This document shows, piece by piece, positions 16,113 through 34,529 of a stretch of DNA of 64,000 nucleotides; within the stretch, counting starts at the first letter, position 1; every line of letters begins with the position of its first letter. A program made the position numbers and the translations under genes. The stretch is from NCBI GenBank assembly GCA_963809895.1, contig CAWELD010000010.1, positions 1,050,123 through 1,114,122 of the forward strand, read 5' to 3'. This DNA comes from an uncultured Gemmatimonadales bacterium. GTDB taxonomy: Bacteria; Gemmatimonadota; Gemmatimonadetes; Longimicrobiales; Gaopeijiaceae. A model generated the notes under the pieces. The model made no database searches. It was not told the DNA's origin and worked only from the letters and a program-made list of their open reading frames with translations.

Positions 16113-18374
16113 TCAGCCGCCGGCGGCCCCTTCCATCGCCTGGGCTTCGTCGTCCCGCCCCAGGGTGCGCAGAAGCCTCGCGAGGTCACGCCTGGTCTCC
16201 GCGATCTGCACGCTGTCCCCGTTGCTCTGCCGGATGGTGAGTGCCCGGCGATAGAGGGATTCCGCGTCCTGTGGACGTCCGGCGTCGCGATAGACGTTGG
16301 CCAGCCCGTTGAGGGTGATGGCCACCGAAGGATTGTCCGCGCCGTACGCGCGCTGCTTGATGTCCAGGGCCTTTTCGAACGCGGCTTCGGCCTCCTCGTA
16401 GCGCCCTTCGGCCCAGTAGGTCTCACCCAGGTTGTTCTCGATGGCCGCGATGCGCGGGTGGTCCGGCTCCAGCGTCGCGGTCCAGATGTCCCGTGCCTTC
16501 TCGTAGGCCTGCTCGGCCTCGGGGAACTTGCCCTGATACCAGTAGAGCGCACCGAGGTTGTTGTACGCCTGGGCCAGATCCGGATGGTCCGGCCCCAGCA
16601 ATCGCTGGCGGATGGCCATGGCCCGCTCGAGGGGTCCTTCCGCGTCGGCGAAGCGCTGCTGGCGCAGGTAGAGGCCGCCCAGGTTGTTGAGGGTCAGGGC
16701 CAGCGTGGCTTCATCCGTCTCGGGCGAGGCCTCCTGGCGGGCGAGTACGTCCTTGAGCAGCGGCTCGGCCTGGTCGAACCGTCCCGTCTCGACGTAGAGA
16801 TCGGCGAGACTGCGCAGGTAGCGCAGGACCGTGGCTTCATCGGGCTCCTCGGTGTCGCGCGCCAGACCCAATGCCCGCTCGAGCACCGGCTCGGCCTCGT
16901 CGTAGGCGCCCTGCTGGCGCAGGAGAATTCCCAGGCGCTGCAGCGTCTCGGCGAGCTCGGCGGGAGCGGCTCCGCTGGACTCGGCCAGCGCCGCGGCCCG
17001 CCGCAGCAGAGGCCGCGCGGCGTCGTACAGGCCCAGCTCCCGGTACACGTCACCCATGGTCCGCATGAGGCGCGCCTGAACGCGTGGTTGGTCCGCGAGC
17101 TCGGCATCGATGCGCTCCGCTCCGCGGTCCAGGATCTCCCGGGCCGTGATGGTGTTGCCGCGGGCCTCGCCGGGGTCGCTGACCTGGAAGAGATCGACCA
17201 GGAAGTCCGCCACGCGGCGGGCCGTCTCGGCCTCTTCTTCTGCGGTGACCTGGGCGTGGCGGGCCTGAAGCATGCCCATGGTGGCGGCCCCGGCGCCGCC
17301 GAGGACCGCCACCAGCGCAATGCAACCCGCGATCACCGCGGCCCGATTGCGCTCCACGAAGCGGTTGAGGCGGTACGCGGCGCTGGGGGGGCGAGCCATG
17401 ATCGGCTCCCGCCTCAGGTATCTCTCGAGATCCGCTGCCATGGCGTTGGCGGTCTCGTACCGGCGTGTACGATCCTTGTCCATGGCCTTGAGGATGATCC
17501 AGTCCAGGTCGCCCTTCAGCTCCCGGCGCAGGAACGAAGGCGTGGTGCGCCGCCGCCGAGCGATGGCGTCCTGGGTGTCACCCAGACTCGTCAGACGGGT
17601 GCTGGGCCGCGGAACGTCCCGCTCGCGGAGCGTCACCTGGATGGCCTGGTCGTGCTTCGACGTGAGATCGAAGGGAAGGCTCCCCACCAGCAGTTCGAAG
17701 AGAACCACGCCCAGCGAGTAGATGTCGGTGCGGGTATCCACATCGAGCCCCGACATCTCGGCCTGTTCGGGGCTCATGTACTCCGGCGTTCCCACCATCT
17801 GGCCCACGCGTGTGACCAGGGTGCGATCCGTGAGGTCGCGCCCTATGGCCTTGGCGATACCGAAATCGATGACCTTCACCAAGGGTCGTGACTCCCGCAC
17901 CGTGACCAGGATGTTGGAGGGCTTCAGGTCCCGGTGGATCACGCCCTTGTGATGCGCGTGCTGGATGGCGTGGCACACGTCCTGGAACAGCCGGATGCGC
18001 TCCTCGGTGCTCAGCTTGTGCGTGTCCGCGTACTCCGTGATCGGCGTCCCCTGGACCAGCTCCATGACGAAGTAGGGACGCCCGATCTCGGTGGCTCCCG
18101 CGTCGTAGACCTTGGCGATGTTGGGATGGTCCATGACCGCCAACGCCTGGCGCTCCGAGTCGAAGCGGGCCACGACGTGCTTCGTGTCCATCCCGATCTT
18201 GATGATCTTGAGCGCCACGCGGCGATGGACCGGGGCCGCCTGCTCGGCCAGGTAGACGATGCCCATGCCACCTTCGCCGAGCACGTCGAGGATCTTGTAC
18301 GGCCCGATCCGCGACGGTGGGCCCAGGGGGTCGCCCGGACCCGGGACCTTGGCGAAGGGATCGTCCTTGCTCAT
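16113..18374 (-). CDS. Ser/Thr protein kinase with TM helix and C-terminal TPR repeats
   Basis: LGEGGMG.VY, VALK, HRDLKPSN, DFG, GTPEYMSPEQ; repeated LA..LNNLG.LY TPR units. Confidence 0.93.
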   Translation of the reverse strand: MSKDDPFAKVPGPGDPLGPPSRIGPYKILDVLGEGGMGIVYLAEQAAPVHRRVALKIIKIGMDTKHVVARFDSERQALAVMDHPNIAKVYDAGATEIGRPYFVMELVQGTPITEYADTHKLSTEERIRLFQDVCHAIQHAHHKGVIHRDLKPSNILVTVRESRPLVKVIDFGIAKAIGRDLTDRTLVTRVGQMVGTPEYMSPEQAEMSGLDVDTRTDIYSLGVVLFELLVGSLPFDLTSKHDQAIQVTLRERDVPRPSTRLTSLGDTQDAIARRRRTTPSFLRRELKGDLDWIILKAMDKDRTRRYETANAMAADLERYLRREPIMARPPSAAYRLNRFVERNRAAVIAGCIALVAVLGGAGAATMGMLQARHAQVTAEEEAETARRVADFLVDLFQVSDPGEARGNTITAREILDRGAERIDAELADQPRVQARLMRTMGDVYRELGLYDAARPLLRRAAALAESSGAAPAELAETLQRLGILLRQQGAYDEAEPVLERALGLARDTEEPDEATVLRYLRSLADLYVETGRFDQAEPLLKDVLARQEASPETDEATLALTLNNLGGLYLRQQRFADAEGPLERAMAIRQRLLGPDHPDLAQAYNNLGALYWYQGKFPEAEQAYEKARDIWTATLEPDHPRIAAIENNLGETYWAEGRYEEAEAAFEKALDIKQRAYGADNPSVAITLNGLANVYRDAGRPQDAESLYRRALTIRQSNGDSVQIAETRRDLARLLRTLGRDDEAQAMEGAAGG

Positions 18375-18458: not shown

Positions 18459-18765
18459 CTAGCAGGTCGCTGAAGAAGGGGAGTACCCCGCGCGCAAGGC
18501 GCTTTCGCGCGTTCAGGCAAGGAAAGACGACGAGTCGTAGCAGCGCTACGGCGAGGAGGAGAGACGATGGATCAACCGCGGAACCGCCATGCGCCCATCC
18601 ATATGCGGCCTATGAACTTGGACGGCAGTGGGTTGGGGCGGCACGGCCCCTCCTCCGTCGTTGAAGCGCCTCGACGTAGCTTTGGCTATGCCTTCGTCAC
18701 TTCGCCTAGGATGAGGGGCCGTGGCGCTCCCAACGCGGGGTGCTCCCCTTCTTCAGCGACCTGCT
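18459..18765. repeat. Palindromic MITE-like element, copy 1
   Basis: 32-bp terminal inverted repeats (18461-18492 / 18734-18765, 31/32 match), left CTAG, internal hairpins, 27-mer identical to copy 2. Confidence 0.75.
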
Positions 18766-19499
18766 CGGTGCGGCGGAGCCTCGGGAGGGCCCCAACGGAT
18801 GCGGTATCCCACCTTCCGGACCGTCAGGATGTGAACCGGGTGCGCGGGATCTCCCTCGAGCTTGGCCCGGAGATTCGCGACGTGCGTGTCGATGGTGCGT
18901 GTCGGCACCGGGCGCTTGTATCCCCAGACCTCCCGGAGCAGCAGCTTGCGCGGCACCGCGGCACCCCGCGCGGCGAGGAGACGCACGAGCAGGTCGAACT
19001 CGCGGGGCGTGAGGTCCACGGGTCGGTCCATCCGCTCGACGGTGCGCGAGCCCAGGTGCACGGCCACCCGACCGAAGACCACCGGGTCGGGAAGGGTGCT
19101 TTCCACCGATGCCGGCTCGGGGGGGCGCACCCTGCGCAGGATCGCCTCCACGCGGGCGATGAGCTCCATGACGCCCACGGGCTTCACCACGTAGTCGTCG
19201 GCCCCCAAGCGGAAACCGCGGAGCTTGTCGAGCTGCTCCCCTCGCGCCGACAGGATGAGAACCGGGAGGTCGGACCCGCCGGCACGAAGATCCCGCAGCA
19301 GGTCGAGGCCGCTCCCTTCCGGCAACATGAGGTCGAGCACCAGGAGATTCGGCGCGGTCGTGGCCAGCAGCCTGCTGGCCGAGGGTCCGTCGTCGGCGAC
19401 GTCGACGCCAAATCCGGCGGCCTCCAGGCTGCGTTGGATGGCGAGGGCGAGGGAGCCGTTGTCCTCGACGATGAGGATCCGCTCTCGGAGGTCAGGCAT
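18753..19499 (-). CDS. OmpR-family response regulator
   Basis: ILIVEDN, LVLDLMLP, GADDYVVKP, RTIDTHVANLRAKLE..TVRKVGY. Confidence 0.93.
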   Translation of the reverse strand: MPDLRERILIVEDNGSLALAIQRSLEAAGFGVDVADDGPSASRLLATTAPNLLVLDLMLPEGSGLDLLRDLRAGGSDLPVLILSARGEQLDKLRGFRLGADDYVVKPVGVMELIARVEAILRRVRPPEPASVESTLPDPVVFGRVAVHLGSRTVERMDRPVDLTPREFDLLVRLLAARGAAVPRKLLLREVWGYKRPVPTRTIDTHVANLRAKLEGDPAHPVHILTVRKVGYRIRWGPPEAPPHRAGR

Positions 19500-21138
19500 C
19501 GGCGGGTTCCGTCCGGCTCCCGGTGGTGGCGGGCAGCTCCACCAGGAATCGCGCGCCGCCCGTGGGGGCGTCCTCGACGCAGGCGTGCCCTCCCGCACGC
19601 TCGGCGAGGTCTGCCACGATGGCCAGTCCCACGCCACTGCCCGTCGTGTGCGTCGCTTGAGCGTGTTCCAGACGGCGGAACGGCCGCCAGATGTCCGCGC
19701 GGGACGCGATCGGCACCCCGGGGCCCTCGTCGTCCACGACGAGCCGGACGGTCGACCCGGTCGCGGTCACCCGAATGTCGATGCGCTGCGCCTGCGGGCC
19801 GTACTTGAGGGCGTTGTCCAGGAGGTTGGACACGATCTGGCGAATGGCATCGGCGGGCGCCCGCGCCCAGGCACCGGGCGACCCGTGGAGTTGGAGGTCC
19901 GCCCCGTCGGCCAGACCCGATGCCTCGAAGCTTCGGACCGTCTCGAGGGCGACCTCGAACAGGTCCGCCTGCTCGTCCGGGTCCTGGCCGCGGTCTCCGC
20001 CTGCGAAATCCAGGAGCCGCTCCACCAGGCGGATCAGCCGCTGCGCTTCTCGCTCGATGACCTGCAGCGACGCCGCCTCCTCGCGCTGGGAGCGGAGCCC
20101 CCCCATGCGGAGCAGCTGGACGAACATGAGGATCTGCTGGAGGGGCGTGCGCAGTTCGTGGGAGACGTCGGCGACGAAGCGTTCTCGTGTATGCACCAGC
20201 GCCAATGCCCTGCGTACCTGGAGGACCGTGGCCACCAGGAGTGCACCGGCCAGGAGGACCAGCGCGGCGGTGAGCGGCAACCGCGACGGGGGAATCCCTC
20301 CGACGACCAACTGGTCGGCGACGGAGGGTCGCAGGGTGACGACGAAGGAGAGTCCGGCCAGCGGCCCGCTGGCGTCTGCCGTCCGGGTTCCCTCGAACGC
20401 GCTTCGCCATTCGACGGGTGAGCGAAAGACGGTTCGGCCCCGGGGGTCGAGAACGCGCAGGGACAGAATGGAGTCCGCTGGAGGATGCCCCACGAGGCCG
20501 GGAGGGAGGAGCACGGATGCCGATTCGGCCGTGGCGAATACGCTGCCGTTGCGCGTGGTGAAGCAGTGTGCGAGGGCGTAGGCTGCCACCGGGCGGCCGG
20601 TGGAATCGCTCTGGATGCGATAGGCAACCACACCCGGGTCCGGACCGGGAGGGAAGAGGTTGCCGTAGGGCGACACCATCGCGTTCGTACCGCGTACGAG
20701 CACGCTGAGCGTATCGGTCAGCCACGTACGCAGGTCGGTGGGGACGGGGCCCACGATCGTCAGCCCGCTGTCCCCCGGCAGGAGGCGCGCATACCACCTG
20801 CCGCCGGGGTAGTCGGCGGCGCAGCGTTCCGCCTCGGGGGGATTCGCCGCCAGAGCTTCCGCGGTCACCGGACCCGAGCCTCTGCGCTCCGCCTGATCCG
20901 CGGCGTAGAACGCGTAGAAGAGTGTCTGCTCCAGATCGGTGGTCGCCTCGGCGGCGAGGAGCGTCGCCGCGAAATCGGCATAGTCACGCACCGTCTGCTC
21001 GGCGGCGCGACGGTGCGTCCGCTCCGCGCTCCATGCTTGCCAACCCAGCGCCCCGGCGACGGCGAGACCAAGGGACAGCGGAACGAGAATGGTGCTCGTG
21101 CGTCGAGCATGGCGGGTGGAGGAACTCGACCGGGTCAT
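19492..21138 (-). CDS. Membrane sensor histidine kinase (HisKA)
   Basis: Two TM helices, VSHELRTPL, NLLDNALKY, DEGPG, GSGVGL. Confidence 0.9.
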   Translation of the reverse strand: MTRSSSSTRHARRTSTILVPLSLGLAVAGALGWQAWSAERTHRRAAEQTVRDYADFAATLLAAEATTDLEQTLFYAFYAADQAERRGSGPVTAEALAANPPEAERCAADYPGGRWYARLLPGDSGLTIVGPVPTDLRTWLTDTLSVLVRGTNAMVSPYGNLFPPGPDPGVVAYRIQSDSTGRPVAAYALAHCFTTRNGSVFATAESASVLLPPGLVGHPPADSILSLRVLDPRGRTVFRSPVEWRSAFEGTRTADASGPLAGLSFVVTLRPSVADQLVVGGIPPSRLPLTAALVLLAGALLVATVLQVRRALALVHTRERFVADVSHELRTPLQQILMFVQLLRMGGLRSQREEAASLQVIEREAQRLIRLVERLLDFAGGDRGQDPDEQADLFEVALETVRSFEASGLADGADLQLHGSPGAWARAPADAIRQIVSNLLDNALKYGPQAQRIDIRVTATGSTVRLVVDDEGPGVPIASRADIWRPFRRLEHAQATHTTGSGVGLAIVADLAERAGGHACVEDAPTGGARFLVELPATTGSRTEPADA

Positions 21139-29929: not shown

Positions 29930-32202
29930 TCCGTTCCGTCTGGACCGTGGCTCGCCGGGAGCTGCGGAGCTATTTCGACCATCCCACCGCGTACGTGCTG
30001 GCGGTGGCGTTCCTGGGGCTGTCGCTCTATCTGGCCTTCCGCAACATGTTCGCCTCGGATGTGGCCACCCTCCGGCCCCTCTTCGGCCTGTTGCCCATTC
30101 TGTTCTCCATCTTCATTCCGGCGGCCACCATGCGGAGTCTCGCCGAGGAGCGGCGGGGCCGCACGCTGGACTGGCTTCTCTCGCAGCCGGTGAGCGAAGC
30201 CGAGGTCGTCCTGGGCAAGTTCCTCGGGGACTGGCTCTTCGTGCTGGTGGCGCTCGCCGGGACGCTCCCCACGGCGCTGGGCCTGCTCGCGGTGTCCGAC
30301 GCCGATCCGGGCATCGTGCTGGCGCAGTACGTCGGGGCGTCGCTGCTGGCGGCGCAACTGGTGGCCCTGGGACTGTGGGCGTCGGCCATGACACGGAACC
30401 AGATCACCGCCTTCATCGTGGCGGCGGTCCTGAGCTTCGCCCTCTACCTCATTGGCCTGGACATCGTGCAGATCGGGCTACCACCGGCCATCTCGGGGGC
30501 GCTGGCGAGGCTCAGCGTGGTGGCCCACTTCGAGAATGTGGCCCGAGGCGTGGTCGACCTGCGCGACGTGCTCTATTTCGTGAGCACAGGCGCCCTCTTC
30601 CTCATGCTGGCCACCGGTGCCGTGAGTGGGGCGCGCCTCAGCCGGGAGCGGCCCGAGTTCCGGCGCCTGCGCACCGGGACCGCCGTGGCGGCGGCGCTGG
30701 TGCTGGTGGTGAACCTGCTGGGGAGTCACGTGCGCGGCCGTCTGGACCTCACCCGTGGCGACCTCTACACACTCGCTCCGGGCACGAAGCACCTCCTGGG
30801 CGGCCTGGACGACATCGTCCAGGTGAAGCTGTTCGCCTCGAAGGAGCTCCCACCCGAGGTGCAGCTCCAGCTTCGCGACGTGCGCGACCTGCTCTCGGAC
30901 ATGAAACGGGCCGGCGACGGCAAGCTGGTCGTGACCGAGCTCCACCCCGACGGCGACGAGGATGCCGCGCAGCAGGCCAGCTCCTACGGCATCCAGCCGG
31001 TGGAGTTCAACGTGCTCCGCAACGACGAGTTCCAGGTGCGCCGCGGCTACTACGGGCTGGCCGTGGTCTACGCGGACAAGCAGAAGGTCTTTCCGGTGAT
31101 CCGGGGCACCGACGATCTGGAGTACCAGCTGGCGTCGACGGTCGCGTCTCTCACCGCCGACACCAAGCCCGCGGTGGCGTTCGTGAGCGGGTACGGGGCC
31201 AAGAGCCAGTATCAGATCCCCAACCTTCAGGACGCGCTGGCGGACCGCTACACGCTCCGCAGCCTGCAGGTGGGCGACTCCGCACCCCCGATTCCCGGGG
31301 ATTCGGTGCAGGTGGTGGTGCTCGCCGGACCGACGCAGGCGCTGGACAGCGTGGCGGTGGGGCAGCTCGAGCGTTTCATCGACGGTGGCGGATCCGCGCT
31401 CCTGATGGTGGATCCGGTCCAACTCGACAACCAGTCTCCCACGGCCATTCCGGTGCGCTCCGGGCTGGAGCCGCTCCTGGAGCGCAGCGGCGTGAAGATG
31501 GACGCGGGCATGGTGTACGATCTGGCATCCAACGAGCGCGTCTCGCTGGGGCGGCGGGGGCTCTTCAACGTGGTGAGCGCCTATCCGTTGTGGCCGGTGG
31601 CCGTGCCCGTGGAGGGCCAGCCCCAGACCCGAGGACTGAACGCGCTGGACCTGGGCTGGGCCGGGGCGCTGGAGATCGAGGACTCGGTCCACGTGGTTCC
31701 CCTCTGGCAGACCACGGAGAACGCCGGGCTCAAACCGGCGGGCAGCCCCATCATGCCGGACCAGGACTGGGATGCCCCCCCTGAAGACCTGTCGGTGAGG
31801 ACCGTGGCGGTGGCCGTGGATCCCTCGGCCGGGTCCGGGAGTGGCTCCGGCGGCGACGGCACCAGCGACGCCTCGGGTGGTGGGTTGGACGCTGGAAAGG
31901 GGCGCATGGTGATCGTGGCCGACGCCAACTGGGCGGAGCAACAGTTCGTGCAGGCCAATCCCCAGAACCTGGTCTTCCTGGCCAACGCCATCGATTGGCT
32001 CGCCCAGGATGAGTCCCTGATTCGCATCCGCTCCAAGAACCGGACGCCGCCGGCGCTCGTGCTCCAGTCCGATCTGTCTCGCGGCCTGCTCAAGTGGGGC
32101 AACCTGGTGGGGGTCCCGCTGCTGCTCGTCCTGGCGGGCGTGGCCCGGGTCACCGGCCGGAAGCGGAGAGCCATGAATCGTTGGAAGGAGGTGGTGGCAT
32201 GA
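29926..32202 (+). CDS. Fused ABC-2 permease (GldF-like) + GldG/GIFT domain protein
   Basis: RRELRSYF..AY, MRSLAEERRG.TL..L..QP, HFENVARGVVD, then DLTRGDLYTL, LEYQL, FLANAIDWL and a C-terminal TM helix. Confidence 0.88.
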   Translation: MIRSVWTVARRELRSYFDHPTAYVLAVAFLGLSLYLAFRNMFASDVATLRPLFGLLPILFSIFIPAATMRSLAEERRGRTLDWLLSQPVSEAEVVLGKFLGDWLFVLVALAGTLPTALGLLAVSDADPGIVLAQYVGASLLAAQLVALGLWASAMTRNQITAFIVAAVLSFALYLIGLDIVQIGLPPAISGALARLSVVAHFENVARGVVDLRDVLYFVSTGALFLMLATGAVSGARLSRERPEFRRLRTGTAVAAALVLVVNLLGSHVRGRLDLTRGDLYTLAPGTKHLLGGLDDIVQVKLFASKELPPEVQLQLRDVRDLLSDMKRAGDGKLVVTELHPDGDEDAAQQASSYGIQPVEFNVLRNDEFQVRRGYYGLAVVYADKQKVFPVIRGTDDLEYQLASTVASLTADTKPAVAFVSGYGAKSQYQIPNLQDALADRYTLRSLQVGDSAPPIPGDSVQVVVLAGPTQALDSVAVGQLERFIDGGGSALLMVDPVQLDNQSPTAIPVRSGLEPLLERSGVKMDAGMVYDLASNERVSLGRRGLFNVVSAYPLWPVAVPVEGQPQTRGLNALDLGWAGALEIEDSVHVVPLWQTTENAGLKPAGSPIMPDQDWDAPPEDLSVRTVAVAVDPSAGSGSGSGGDGTSDASGGGLDAGKGRMVIVADANWAEQQFVQANPQNLVFLANAIDWLAQDESLIRIRSKNRTPPALVLQSDLSRGLLKWGNLVGVPLLLVLAGVARVTGRKRRAMNRWKEVVA

Positions 32203-33122
32203 GTCGCAAGACGCTGCGCCTCATGGTGCAGGCGCTGGTGCTCCTGATCGTGGTGTGGGCCGGAGTGACCTTCTTCTCCAATCGGGAGGCGGCCACCGCG
32301 CCGGCCAGCGGTGCCCTGGCCGAGCTGTTCCAGGGCGTGACGCCCGAGACCGTCTCCGCCGTGAAGATCCGGCCCCCCCGGGGATCCGAGGTGGCGCTGG
32401 AGCGCCAGGGCGCGGGTGCCTGGACAGTGAACGGGCTTCCCGCGGATTCCTCCGAGATCGCACGCCTCCTGGACGGCCTCGAGGGCGCCGCCATCGGCGA
32501 CCTCGTCGCCACCAATCCGGAGAATCACGCTCGCATGGGCGTCGCTGGGGACAGCGCGTGGCGCGTGGAGCTGGACGTGGATGGAGCTACGCGGACCGTG
32601 CTGCTCGGGAGCGCGGGCAGCCGGTACGGGACCACGTACGTCCGGGCTCCCGGAGAAGACCCGGTATACCTCATGACCGGGAACGTCCGCTCCCTGCTCA
32701 CGCGGGGTGCCGACGCCTGGCGCAACAAGCGCGTGGCTGCCGTGGACACGGCTGCGGTGGCCCGCATCGAGGTGGCTGCGGGTGACGACGCCTACCGGCT
32801 CCAACGACAGGACAGCACCTGGACTCTGGAGGGCGGCGGCAAGGCCGATGCGGCCACCGTGCGCTCGCTCCTGGGTGAGCTGGCCTCGGCGCGGGCGTCG
32901 GGATTCGTGGCGCCGGGGGATTCCCTGGCGCAGGTCCCGGCCCGGGACCGCGTGTTGGCGCTGTCCGCGACGGGAGATACGCTGGCCGCTCTGACCGTGG
33001 GCGGCGAGGGGGGGGATCGCTGGGTGCGCGCGCGGGGTGACGAAACGCTCTACCGGCTGCAATCGTACCGGGCGGACCGCCTGGCACCGGCCGAGGATAA
33101 GGTGACGGGCTCGGGATCCTGA
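32199..33122 (+). CDS. DUF4340-domain protein
   Basis: N-terminal TM helix, W.V..PAD, LLG..G..Y.R, WRNK; typical partner of Gld-like ABC genes; ATGA overlap. Confidence 0.82.
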   Translation: MSRKTLRLMVQALVLLIVVWAGVTFFSNREAATAPASGALAELFQGVTPETVSAVKIRPPRGSEVALERQGAGAWTVNGLPADSSEIARLLDGLEGAAIGDLVATNPENHARMGVAGDSAWRVELDVDGATRTVLLGSAGSRYGTTYVRAPGEDPVYLMTGNVRSLLTRGADAWRNKRVAAVDTAAVARIEVAAGDDAYRLQRQDSTWTLEGGGKADAATVRSLLGELASARASGFVAPGDSLAQVPARDRVLALSATGDTLAALTVGGEGGDRWVRARGDETLYRLQSYRADRLAPAEDKVTGSGS

Positions 33123-33130
33123 GGTGCCCT

Positions 33131-33409
33131 CTAGAGGGGTGTTGAAGAAGTGGGGTGCGGCCGCGCGCCAGGGTCTTGCGGGTGTCAGGGTAGGAAGAGT
33201 GGCGAAAGCGATGCCGTAGCATCGGTGAGTCGCTCTGACGACGCCTGATGCCGCAACCCCCTGGCGCCCGGAGGGTTGGGGCGGCATGGCCCCATCTTCG
33301 TCGTTGGCACGGCTCGACGTAGCTTTGGCTATGCCTTCGCCGCACCGCCTAGAATCTGGGGCCATGGCGCTCCCAACGCGGCTCGCCCCACTTCTTCAAC
33401 ACCCTCTAG
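33131..33409. repeat. Palindromic MITE-like element, copy 2
   Basis: CTAG at both ends (33131-34, 33406-09), ~33-bp imperfect terminal inverted repeats, right half aligns with copy 1. Confidence 0.75.
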
Positions 33410-33443: not shown

Positions 33444-34529
33444 ATGCCCGGCGCCTCCCGCATTCCCGTCATCGACGGCCACAACGACACGCTCACGCGC
33501 ATCCGGCGTGATCCCGAGGAGGGGCGCCGGAGTTTTCTCGAGCGCAGCGGCGAAGGACACATCGATCTGCCACGCGCGTTGGACGGTGGTTTGGCCGCGG
33601 GCTTCTTCGCCATTTTCACGGAGACCCCAGGCTACGAGCGGAGCCTCCAGCCGGTGCTGGACGAGTCCGGCACGCCGGTGGAGGGCAGCTACCGGGTGCC
33701 GCTGCCACGGCGCCTCCGCCGCATGGGGGCGCTGCGGAACGTCCTGGCGGTGATGTCGGATCTCTTTCGCCTCGAGCGGGCGTCGGGGGGGCAGGTGGCG
33801 GTCGTGCGCAGCGCCGCGGAGCTGGCAGCATGCATGGACGAGGGTCGGCTGGCCGCCATCCTCCACATCGAGGGCGCCGAGGCCGTGGACACCCGATTGG
33901 AGGCGCTGGACGTCTTCCATGCCGCGGGGCTGCGCTCACTGGGGCCGGTGTGGAGCCGCCCCAACGCGTTCGCGCACGGCGTGCCGTTCGACTTCCCCTC
34001 GGGACCCGACACGGGGCCGGGCCTCACCGCCGCCGGCCGCCGCCTGGTCCGAGCGTGCAACCGGCTGGGGATCCTGGTGGACCTGTCCCACCTGAACCAG
34101 GCCGGCTTCCAGGACGTGGCCGGGCTGTCGGACGCGCCGCTGGTGGCGACCCATTCGTGTGCCCACGCGCTGTGTCCGTCGCCCCGGAATCTCACCGATG
34201 CGCAGTTGGACACCATCGCAGCCAGCGGTGGCATCGTCGGGGTGAACTTCCACAAGGGCTTTCTGCGTGCCGACGGCGACCCCGAGGCCGAGACCTCGCT
34301 CACCGAGATCGTTCGCCACGCGCGCTACATGGCGGATCGCATGGGCGTCGAGCACGTGGGGCTGGGCTCGGACTTCGACGGAGCGCGCATGCCCGAAGAC
34401 CTGGGCGACGTCACCGGACTGCCGCGGCTCCTCCATGCGCTGTCGGACGCCGGGTTCGACGAAGACGACGTGGAGGCCATCGCACACGGGAACTGGCAGC
34501 GGGTGCTGGCGGAGACCTGGGGCGGCTGA
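33444..34529 (+). CDS. Membrane dipeptidase family (M19)
   Basis: IDGHND, HIEG, DLSH, ATHS, GLGSDFDG, GNW.RV. Confidence 0.93.
   Translation: MPGASRIPVIDGHNDTLTRIRRDPEEGRRSFLERSGEGHIDLPRALDGGLAAGFFAIFTETPGYERSLQPVLDESGTPVEGSYRVPLPRRLRRMGALRNVLAVMSDLFRLERASGGQVAVVRSAAELAACMDEGRLAAILHIEGAEAVDTRLEALDVFHAAGLRSLGPVWSRPNAFAHGVPFDFPSGPDTGPGLTAAGRRLVRACNRLGILVDLSHLNQAGFQDVAGLSDAPLVATHSCAHALCPSPRNLTDAQLDTIAASGGIVGVNFHKGFLRADGDPEAETSLTEIVRHARYMADRMGVEHVGLGSDFDGARMPEDLGDVTGLPRLLHALSDAGFDEDDVEAIAHGNWQRVLAETWGG

What the first reader, a model, noticed from the sequence alone, without database searches (positions are those of the whole stretch)
18459..18765. Multicopy ~300-bp palindromic element with compensatory base changes (second copy 33131-33409)
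Seen: two intergenic copies 15 kb apart share an identical 27-mer CTCGACGTAGCTTTGGCTATGCCTTCG (18670-96, 33313-39). Each copy keeps its own long terminal inverted repeat around a TGAAGAAG core although the two copies have diverged. An inner stem covaries: CACGGCCCCTC/GAGGGGCCGTG versus CATGGCCCCA/TGGGGCCATG. Each left arm has a mirror hairpin (CGTAGC-AGC-GCTACG; CGATGC-CGTA-GCATCG). CTAG bounds both ends of copy 2 and the left end of copy 1. Inference: structure is under selection, so this is either a non-autonomous mobile element mobilised in trans (CTAG recalls IS5-type targets; GTAG hairpins recall REP/RAYT) or a structured ncRNA. It resembles multicopy repeats I recall from deltaproteobacterial genomes (unverified).
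Basis: partly seen in the sequence, partly recalled or inferred. Interest (0 to 1): 0.62.

Follow-up and report, generated by a model that had tools for sequence, protein, structure and literature searches.

The report
IS5-type jumping hairpin element (MITE)
The two look-alike intergenic sequences are copies of a small non-coding "jumping" DNA element (a MITE) that is common in Gemmatimonadota; this is an ordinary kind of selfish DNA, but its folded Y-shaped interior is unusually well conserved and it sits more often in one orientation relative to neighbouring genes.

Summary
Copy 1 (18463-18763, 301 bp) and copy 2 (33135-33405, 271 bp) are two subfamilies of one repeat family. The genome holds 11 full copies, one truncated copy and several end remnants. 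Related copies occur in 26 of 61 related Gemmatimonadota genomes.

Each copy has 20-35-bp terminal inverted repeats and CTAG-type flanks. Where the flanks are non-canonical and match, they read CTAA/CTAA or TTAG/TTAG, which fits the YTAR target of IS5.

In sister lineages the outer repeat equals the ends of real insertion sequences. One is IS1182-type (17/17 bases) and one is IS5-type (17/18). So this is a MITE of the IS5/IS1182 kind. No transposase with the window copies' own TGAAGAAG ends was found.

All copies fold into a Y: a closing stem plus two hairpin arms. Across 27 lineages 95% of pair cells stay paired, and 68 of 84 pairs changed on both sides.

Three G-T wobble pairs are fixed or common on one strand. 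Sense orientation between same-direction genes is favoured 24:7. These two results hint at a strand-specific constraint, possibly at RNA level, which I could not test. There is no Rfam match and no RAYT gene. This is a new family of a known kind.

The parts
18459..18462 (.). Copy 1, left flanking CTAG (target-site duplication).
   Evidence: The same CTAG/CTAA flank is seen at most genome copies.
18463..18763 (+). Copy 1: MITE of subfamily 1, 301 bp (CAGGTCGCTGAAGAAG...CTTCTTCAGCGACCTG).
   Evidence: It matches 8 other full copies in the genome at 84-99% identity. The family HMM scores it at 283 bits.
18463..18492 (+). Copy 1, left terminal inverted repeat (closing stem P1, 5' side).
   Evidence: (repeat I1, 97% complementary) and the fold.
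18492..18593 (+). Copy 1, left-arm hairpin. The tip is CGTAGC-AGC-GCTACG at 18536-18550. The stem is built of C-G pairs spaced by GA/AG steps (ACGACGACGAG / CGAGGAGGAG).
   Evidence: Folds; pair table (left arm 96% paired, 20 of 25 pairs changed on both sides).
18632..18733 (+). Copy 1, right-arm hairpin, the best-conserved part. It holds the 27-mer tip (18670-18696) and an internal CTAG (18706-18709).
18734..18763 (+). Copy 1, right terminal inverted repeat.
18764..18767 (.). Copy 1, right flank CTCG, a decayed copy of the CTAG duplication.
18753..19637 (-). OmpR-type response-regulator gene. Its reading frame runs across the target site into the right repeat and stops at the TGA of GCTGAAG, so the last residues and the stop codon come from the element.
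   Evidence: searches (ORF; Response_reg + Trans_reg_C) and the sequence.
16113..18374 (-). Ser/Thr kinase-TPR gene. Its start codon lies 85 bp from the left end of copy 1.
33131..33134 (.). Copy 2, left CTAG duplication.
33135..33405 (+). Copy 2: MITE of subfamily 2, 271 bp (AGGGGTGTTGAAGAAG...CTTCTTCAACACCCT). The left arm is of the other type, with tip CGATGC-CGTA-GCATCG at 33209-33224. The right arm is shared with copy 1 (27-mer at 33313-33339, internal CTAG at 33349-33352).
   Evidence: There is a second genome copy at C3:476653, 92% identical. HMM score 218 bits.
33406..33409 (.). Copy 2, right CTAG duplication.
32094..33122 (+). Upstream DUF4340 gene. Its TGA stop lies 8 nt before the left CTAG of copy 2.
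33444..34529 (+). Downstream M19 dipeptidase gene. It starts 35 nt after copy 2.

Best explanation
Both sequences are copies of a miniature inverted-repeat transposable element (MITE). A MITE is a non-coding DNA transposon that a DDE transposase encoded elsewhere cuts out and pastes in.

The family belongs to the IS5/IS1182 type. The transposase would bind the ~20-nt outer part of the terminal inverted repeats and insert the element into CTAG-like (YTAR) sites, duplicating the target. Because YTAR contains TAG or TAA, many copies land exactly on a stop codon and leave the gene intact.

The interior is a conserved Y-shaped fold made of a closing stem and two hairpin arms. It is inherited along the lineages that keep spreading.

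Shown here: the repeat family, its ends, its flanks, its copy numbers, its fold and compensatory changes, and the identity of sister-lineage ends with the ends of real IS5- and IS1182-family elements.

Inferred: mobilisation in trans, the 4-bp size of the duplication, and that the window's own TGAAGAAG-type ends belong to a not-yet-found IS5-group element.
For: 1. Copy number and spread. There are 11 full copies plus one truncated copy in the 5.33-Mb genome, in unrelated contexts. The closest pair is 99.7% identical. Related copies are in 26 of 61 related genomes, and the search scored at most 12 candidate places per genome. One genome has about 58 matches to its end repeat at up to 2 mismatches and another about 72 at up to 1 mismatch.

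2. Ends. The flanks are CTAG in most copies. Matched non-canonical pairs are CTAA/CTAA (C3:3480903, L057) and TTAG/TTAG (L054, L055). This is the 4-bp YTAR duplication reported for IS5 (PMC5009759).

3. Ends that equal real insertion sequences.
- Copies in G036 carry GGAGCCTGTCCGAGTAA. This matches 17/17 the ends of a 1503-bp IS1182-family element of this genome (C10:1011483-1012985; NF033551, 264 bits).
- A copy in G005 carries GGGAAGCTCTGCACAAGT. This matches 17/18 the ends of a 1175-bp IS5-family element (NF033581, 324 bits). About 70 metagenomic relatives of that element have the same ends and CTAG flanks.
- E. coli IS5 IRL aligns with the GAAGGCTGTTGAAGAAGTGGGG end at 17 identities; 109 of 5000 shuffles score as well.

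4. Deletion derivatives that keep both tips occur (G000 C3:1679878; L100, L102, L106), as expected from interrupted gap repair after excision.

5. Other insertion sequences have landed inside copies: IS630-type in L097 and IS256-type in L131.

6. There is no Rfam family, no promoter or terminator pattern and no conserved ORF.
Against: No element with a transposase gene and the window copies' own ends (CAGGTCGCTGAAGAAG or AGGGGTGTTGAAGAAG) was found. I looked in this genome, in 60 relatives and among 70 metagenomic IS5 relatives.

The only IS1182-type element of this genome is frameshifted and has different ends.

The copy-rich, nearly complete genomes G028 and G060 have no DDE_Tnp_1 or DDE_Tnp_1_2 transposase at all.

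No empty site could be shown, because the genomes of this genus share only about 70% DNA identity and lack synteny at the copy 1 locus.

Several flank pairs do not match (GTAG/CTAG, TTAG/CTAG, CTAG/CTAA). A 2-bp TA duplication is therefore not excluded.

The interior is as conserved as the ends and the orientation is biased. A plain MITE model does not predict either.
Confidence: 0.8

Rival explanations
1. The conserved Y-shaped interior is a functional, strand-specific RNA carried on a mobile element. When co-transcribed with the upstream gene it might act as a 3'-end stabiliser, a processing site or a regulator. Selection on that RNA, not only on transposition, would keep the fold. This can hold together with the MITE reading.
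For: Across 27 lineages 95.1% of pair cells are paired, against 40-47% when partners are slid. 68 of 84 pairs changed on both sides, against 25-32 when slid.

Three G-T wobble pairs are kept on the + strand, in 27/27, 21/27 and 12/27 lineages.

The + strand RNA folds better than the - strand (-186.5 vs -172.1 kcal/mol).

Unpaired tip sequences are conserved (CTCGACGTAGC...GGCTATGCCTTCG).

Between same-direction genes the sense orientation is favoured 24 to 7 (p = 0.003).
Against: There is no Rfam match and no promoter or terminator of its own.

Outside the three recurrent wobble pairs, G-T (42) and A-C (43) mismatches are equal, so ongoing decay shows no strand preference.

The gene strands were called from GC periodicity, not from annotation.

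Compensatory change can arise in DNA palindromes without selection.

Confidence: 0.2
2. The element is mobilised by the resident IS630-family transposase, which inserts at the TA of CTAG and duplicates TA, as proposed for RUP in pneumococcus.
For: This genome has three nearly identical (99.7%) 1.15-kb IS630-type copies, all sitting in CTAG with TA at each end. G028 has 23 such copies together with many MITE copies. Flank pairs such as GTAG/CTAG and TTAG/CTAG fit a 2-bp TA duplication better than a 4-bp one.
Against: The IS630 ends (GTGTACTGTTACAAAAGT, GTGTAGTGTCGC...) match the MITE ends at only 8-11 of 20-21 positions.

G060 has an estimated 30-35 MITE copies but only a 63-aa IS630 remnant, and G035, G036, G005, G014, G011 and G003 have none. 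The IS630-rich genomes G024 and G051 have no MITE.

Matched CTAA/CTAA and TTAG/TTAG flanks fit a 4-bp duplication.
Confidence: 0.12
3. The element is a REPIN/BIME-like repeat moved as folded single-stranded DNA by a Y1 (RAYT / IS200-type) transposase, with the GTAGC hairpin tips as recognition sites.
For: Both arm tips carry GTAGC-loop-GCTA(C/T) hairpins. Complementarity rather than sequence is kept in the stems. The orientation is biased.
Against: PF01797 (Y1_Tnp) is absent from this genome and from 10 of 11 other copy-rich genomes, while the control genomes score. The element has true terminal inverted repeats and target duplications, which REP elements lack. Its ends equal DDE-type IS ends in sister lineages.
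Confidence: 0.02

Closest known systems
IS5 (E. coli) and MITEs derived from IS5-family elements
   Same: The target is CTAG/CTAA/TTAG, i.e. YTAR (PMC5009759). The terminal repeat has the GGAAG.../...AAG type. E. coli IS5 IRL GGAAGGTGCGAATAAGCGGGGA aligns with GAAGGCTGTTGAAGAAGTGGGG. A sister lineage carries the exact ends of an IS5-family element.
   Different: Only the ~18-nt tips are shared with the insertion sequences. The interior is not a deletion remnant of the IS. It is a separate conserved double-hairpin module found behind at least five different end types. The parent of the window copies' own ends is unknown.
IS1182-family insertion sequences (NCBIfam NF033551)
   Same: The 1503-bp IS1182-type element of this genome has TA/CTAG-type flanks. 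Its 17-nt tip is identical to that of the G036 MITE lineage. IS1182-type elements in related genomes all sit in CTAG.
   Different: The resident copy is frameshifted. Its ends match the window copies at only about 11 of 20 positions.
RUP (pneumococcus) and Correia/NEMIS (Neisseria), MITEs linked to IS630-type transposition (from my own knowledge)
   Same: They are small, hairpin-forming, intergenic, insert at TA and are often co-transcribed with neighbouring genes.
   Different: The ends do not resemble the resident IS630 ends. The matched non-canonical flanks point to a 4-bp duplication. The element is longer and Y-shaped.
ERIC/IRU and REPIN/BIME repeats of Proteobacteria (from my own knowledge)
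   Same: They are intergenic imperfect palindromes conserved across genera, with stems kept by paired changes.
   Different: There is no RAYT gene. True terminal repeats and target duplications are present. There is no sequence similarity and no Rfam or plasmid match.

Membership tests
MITE (generic) | Short (under about 600 bp) with no coding capacity. | tested here: met
   The copies are 271-351 bp. The start codon present in copy 1 is not conserved in other lineages.
MITE (generic) | Terminal inverted repeats. | tested here: met
   Arms of 19-32 nt at 97-100% complementarity in the window copies; 18-22 of 22 positions in all but a few mis-trimmed copies.
MITE (generic) | Target-site duplication. 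| tested here: met
   CTAG or YTAR lies on both sides in most copies, and matched CTAA/CTAA and TTAG/TTAG pairs occur. Whether 2 or 4 bp are duplicated is not settled.
MITE (generic) | Many dispersed copies in unrelated contexts. | tested here: met
   11 full copies in this genome and dozens in G028 and G060.
MITE (generic) | Ends match those of an autonomous insertion sequence. | tested here: inconclusive
   Met for two sister lineages: 17/17 with an IS1182-type element and 17/18 with an IS5-type element. Not met for the TGAAGAAG ends of the two window copies.
MITE (generic) | Presence/absence polymorphism (empty sites). | tested here: inconclusive
   The genus is too divergent and lacks synteny at copy 1.
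IS5-family derivative | 4-bp YTAR duplication. | tested here: inconclusive
   Four matched non-canonical YTAR pairs support it. Six or more mismatched pairs may be later mutations or may point to TA only (PMC5009759).
IS5-family derivative | A cognate transposase in the same genome. | tested here: not met
   This genome has no IS5-group transposase. Its PF01609 hits are the IS1182-type element and unrelated insertion sequences with other ends.
IS630-derived MITE (RUP-like) | Ends resemble those of the IS630-type element. | tested here: not met
   8-11 of 20-21 positions match.
REPIN / RAYT system | A Y1 (RAYT) transposase gene in the genome. | tested here: not met
   PF01797 is absent from this genome and from 10 of 11 other copy-rich genomes.
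Described RNA families (Rfam 15) | A match at or near a family's gathering score. | tested here: not met
   The best hits score 15.6 and 25.5 bits against thresholds of 50-55.

The most novel reading that the evidence does not exclude
The unit under selection may be the conserved double-hairpin core itself: a strand-specific folded nucleic acid, either RNA or single-stranded DNA. On this reading the core changes its outer repeat "heads" step by step, always on both arms, to match whichever IS5/IS1182-type transposase is at hand. It is also better tolerated, or useful, when transcribed in the sense direction behind a gene. That would make it a mobile structured module rather than a mere deletion remnant of an insertion sequence.
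Probability: 0.2. Interest if true: 0.7.

Novelty: new member of a known kind. Interest (0 to 1): 0.4.

Why it matters
For annotation, this family explains many long intergenic palindromes in Gemmatimonadota. It also explains some altered gene ends. Here a response regulator takes its last residues and its stop codon from the element. In 29 of 72 copies a flanking TAG or TAA serves as the stop codon of a long ORF.

For mobile-element biology, the family is a clean case in which one folded interior appears behind at least five end types, two of which equal the ends of real IS5- and IS1182-family elements. The ends change on both arms together. If the orientation bias and the fixed wobble pairs hold up, the family would allow a direct test of whether a MITE interior is selected as RNA.

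Tried and rejected
- **Rfam.** Scans of both copies gave only chance-level hits.
- **Plasmids.** Search of the plasmid collection gave no match.
- **Harbinger-like DDE_Tnp_4.** Absent from this genome.
- **IS427-type DDE_Tnp_1_2.** Absent from this genome and from all copy-rich relatives.
- **Y1/RAYT.** Absent.
- **Homologues of the resident IS1182-type transposase.** Present in 7 of 61 genomes, none of them copy-rich. The five public relatives all carry the GGAGCCTGTCCGAGTAA ends, not TGAAGAAG ends.
- **Long candidates bounded by MITE ends.**
  - G028 2643764-2645422 is two fragments around an unrelated gene.
  - G028 4502256-4503703 is a MITE split by an IS630-type element.
  - G060 C3:412743-414505 is a MITE split by an IS256-type element.
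- **A GCAGGCCGTTGAAGAC motif in G051.** It lies inside an insertion sequence, not at its end.
- **Similarity of the MITE interior to the IS1182-type or IS630-type element.** None.
- **Empty-site search for copy 1 in the genus.** Only the kinase-side flank matched, at about 70% identity, with no synteny.
- **Sequencing-run tool.** It was closed, so neither expression nor population polymorphism could be examined.
- **Hammerhead-like reading of CUGAAGA.** Rejected: the motif simply pairs with the other repeat arm and no ribozyme model matched.

Full report
**What is in the window.**
Copy 1 reads CTAG|CAGGTCGCTGAAGAAGGGGAG...CTCCCCTTCTTCAGCGACCTG|CTCG (element 18463-18763). Copy 2 reads CTAG|AGGGGTGTTGAAGAAGTGGGG...CCCCACTTCTTCAACACCCT|CTAG (element 33135-33405).
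- The repeat finder gives 32-nt arms at 97% complementarity for copy 1 and a perfect 19-nt pair for copy 2.
- The two copies align at 80% column identity. The right half is nearly identical, including the 27-mer at 18670-18696 and 33313-33339, which no shuffle reproduces.
- Both copies are intergenic. Copy 1 lies between an OmpR-type response regulator and a Ser/Thr kinase-TPR gene, both on the minus strand. Copy 2 lies between a DUF4340 gene and an M19 dipeptidase gene, both on the plus strand.

**Copy number.**
The window is C10:1050123-1114122 of a 5.33-Mb, 69% G+C assembly of 11 contigs. Earlier notes of this scan place the genome in Gemmatimonadota, and the named public relatives of its IS1182-type element agree.
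- BLAST and a family HMM find nine full copies of the copy-1 type (84-100% identical to copy 1; the closest pair is 99.7% identical). They also find two copies of the copy-2 type (92%) and one truncated copy. Only two copies are in the window.
- Short remnants also occur. One is C3:1679878, CAGGTCGCTGAAGAAGGGGAG-CGACCTG, which keeps both tips.

**Distribution.**
Of 61 related genomes, 26 have matches, and the search scored at most 12 candidate places per genome.
- The complete genome G028 has 58 matches to its end repeat at up to two mismatches. G060 has about 72 at up to one mismatch, which I estimate as 30-35 elements.
- Median identity within a genome is 91-96%.
- Identity between genomes does not follow relatedness. 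A copy in another genus (G035) is 87% identical to copy 1, while same-genus genomes hold copies only 67-71% identical. This fits horizontal spread.

**Ends and target.**
Most copies have CTAG on both sides.
- Informative non-canonical flanks are mixed. CTAA/CTAA (G000 C3:3480903, L057) and TTAG/TTAG (L054, L055) match on both sides. GTAG/CTAG, TTAG/CTAG and CTAG/CTAA do not.
- Since nearly all insertions are into CTAG, one-sided deviations are expected from later mutation. The matched pairs are exactly the YTAR set reported for the 4-bp duplication of IS5 (PMC5009759).
- I therefore favour a 4-bp YTAR duplication, but a 2-bp TA duplication remains possible.
- In 29 of 72 copies the TAG or TAA of a flank is the stop codon of an ORF of at least 150 codons. 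Two genome copies sit on the stops of paralogous genes ending ...KVNYWLGL* and ...KVNYWFTP*.

**Link to transposases.**
The outer ~17-20 nt of the terminal repeat (the "head") differs between lineages while the interior stays alignable. Two heads equal the ends of real insertion sequences.
- G036 copies carry GGAGCCTGTCCGAGTAA. This is identical over 17 nt to both ends of a 1503-bp element of this genome at C10:1011483-1012985. That element has TA flanks and a DUF772 + DDE_Tnp_1 + DDE_Tnp_1_6 transposase that scores 264 bits on the IS1182 model.
- The resident copy is frameshifted. Its relatives in other assemblies, with the same ends, have one intact ORF of 430-442 aa.
- A G005 copy carries GGGAAGCTCTGCACAAGT. 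This matches 17/18 the ends of a 1175-bp element in G036, whose transposase scores 324 bits on an IS5-family model.
- About 70 metagenomic relatives of that transposase all have CTAG|GGAA(G/C)CTCTGCACA ends.
- IS1182-type elements in related genomes also sit in CTAG.
- The ends of E. coli IS5, read from MG1655, align with the GAAGGCTGTTGAAGAAGTGGGG head at 17 identities with two 1-nt gaps. 109 of 5000 shuffles do as well, so this is only modest support.

**What was not found.**
No element with the TGAAGAAG-type heads of the two window copies encloses a transposase gene.
- The copy-rich genomes G028 (one contig) and G060 (five contigs) have no DDE_Tnp_1 or DDE_Tnp_1_2 hit.
- IS630-type elements are present: three copies here and 23 in G028, always in CTAG with TA at each end. 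But their ends match the MITE ends at only 8-11 of 20-21 positions, and their presence does not track the MITE across genomes.
- Y1/RAYT genes are absent.
- The long candidates bounded by MITE ends all turned out to be MITEs split by other insertion sequences, or paired fragments.

**Fold and covariation.**
Both copies fold into a Y: a closing stem of about 30-35 bp formed by the terminal repeats, a left-arm hairpin and a right-arm hairpin. Copy 1 has a small extra hairpin at the junction.
- Z-scores against shuffles are -7.7 for DNA and -9.6 to -11.8 for RNA.
- I reduced 66 full copies to 27 lineage consensus sequences and predicted a consensus structure of 84 pairs.
- 95.1% of pair cells are Watson-Crick or G-T, against 40-47% when the 3' partners are slid by 1-3 columns. 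68 pairs show changes on both sides, against 25-32 when slid.
- Examples: columns 178-249 are GC in 13 lineages and CG in 11. Columns 78-89 are TA in 17 and AT in 10. Columns 196-232 are CG in 13 and AT in 10.
- Among the 12 copies within G028 there are 18 fully compensated double changes. Thirteen of these are in the outer 17 bp of the repeats. There are 53 one-sided changes.
- Heads, necks, left-arm types and right-tip types occur in many combinations. Intermediates link the CAGGTCGCTGAAGAA and AAGGCTGTTGAAGAA heads within one genome, G060.
- Mean conservation of the interior (0.73-0.82) equals that of the repeats (0.78-0.80).
- The interior shows no similarity to the interiors of the IS1182-type or IS630-type elements.

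**What the covariation means.**
It shows that the lineages which spread keep the fold. It does not by itself show selection on an RNA. Imperfect DNA palindromes are corrected by template switching during replication and by conversion between arms. This is established mutational biology and my own inference here; it was not tested.

Two observations argue for some real constraint.
- Three G-T wobble pairs persist on the strand I call plus. They are at columns 192-235 (27/27 lineages), 23-273 (21/27) and 26-271 (12/27). Correction toward perfect pairing would have erased them.
- The other mismatches are equally G-T (42) and A-C (43), which shows no strand preference in ongoing decay.

**Orientation.**
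I called the strand of flanking genes from the GC periodicity of 450-nt flanks. This method is symmetric with respect to the element.
- After removing duplicates, the element lies in sense between same-direction genes 24 times and in antisense 7 times (p = 0.003).
- The gene on its left reads toward it 36 times and away 14 times (p = 0.003).
- A stop-codon-based count shows a weaker, non-significant trend in the same direction (20 vs 12).
- Symmetric ends and a palindromic target predict 50:50.
- This may reflect RNA-level selection after insertion or a strand-coupled insertion step.

**Verdict.**
The finding is a genuine, recently active MITE family of the IS5/IS1182 type in Gemmatimonadota. 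It has two subfamilies in the window. It is a new family of a well-known kind.

The unusual points are the conserved Y-shaped interior behind exchangeable heads, the paired evolution of both repeat arms, the recurrent wobble pairs and the orientation bias.

Earlier AI notes from this scan describe the same kind of CTAG-targeting hairpin element with a conserved core in other genomes. I treated these as leads. The IS5/IS1182 link and the multiple end types were re-derived here from this genome and its relatives.

Noticed in passing
window 18753-18767: The response-regulator ORF (18753-19637, minus strand) crosses the decayed target site into the right repeat of copy 1 and ends ...PPHRAGR* at the TGA of GCTGAAG. 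Without the element, the joined flanks would read ...PPHLETAR*. The insertion therefore replaced the last few residues and the stop codon.
   Followed up: partly
G000 C10:1011483-1012985 (38.6 kb upstream of the window): A single 1503-bp IS1182-family element with perfect 20-bp ends TAGGAGCCTGTCCGAGTAAT. Its transposase is split by a frameshift, whereas relatives have one intact ORF of 430-442 aa.
   Followed up: yes
G000 C3:660058-661209, C3:3677084 region and C8:16483-17632: Three 99.7%-identical copies of a 1.15-kb IS630-family element, each in CTAG with TA at both ends. Two of them lie next to copies of another 1.2-kb DDE_Tnp_1 element.
   Followed up: partly
G028 loci L099, L104, L107, L110, L113: Solo ~26-30-nt end repeats (GAAGGCTGTTGAAGGAGTACAGCGGG...) sit directly upstream of start codons. 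Their GGAG lies 8-12 nt before ATG/GTG, like a ribosome-binding site donated by an element remnant.
   Followed up: no
L097 (G028 C1:4502000-4503950) and L131 (G060 C3:412400-414850): MITE copies split by later insertions: an IS630-type element in the right arm just after the conserved CCTAGG, and an IS256-type element near one end.
   Followed up: yes
window 18520-18565 and the same columns in relatives: The left arm is built of C-G pairs spaced by GA/AG steps (ACGACGACGAG opposite CGAGGAGGAG). This could form runs of tandem G-A pairs. The motif is conserved in the type-A left arm across genera.
   Followed up: no
loci L080, L085, L087, L089, L090 (G024): IS1182-type copies sit in extended palindromic targets (CCTAGG, GCTAGC, CACTAGTG), so the inverted symmetry continues beyond CTAG into the flanks.
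   Followed up: no
G000 C3:3480903 and C3:2766406: Two copies are inserted exactly on the stop codons (CTAA, GTAG) of paralogous genes ending ...KVNYWLGL* and ...KVNYWFTP*.
   Followed up: partly
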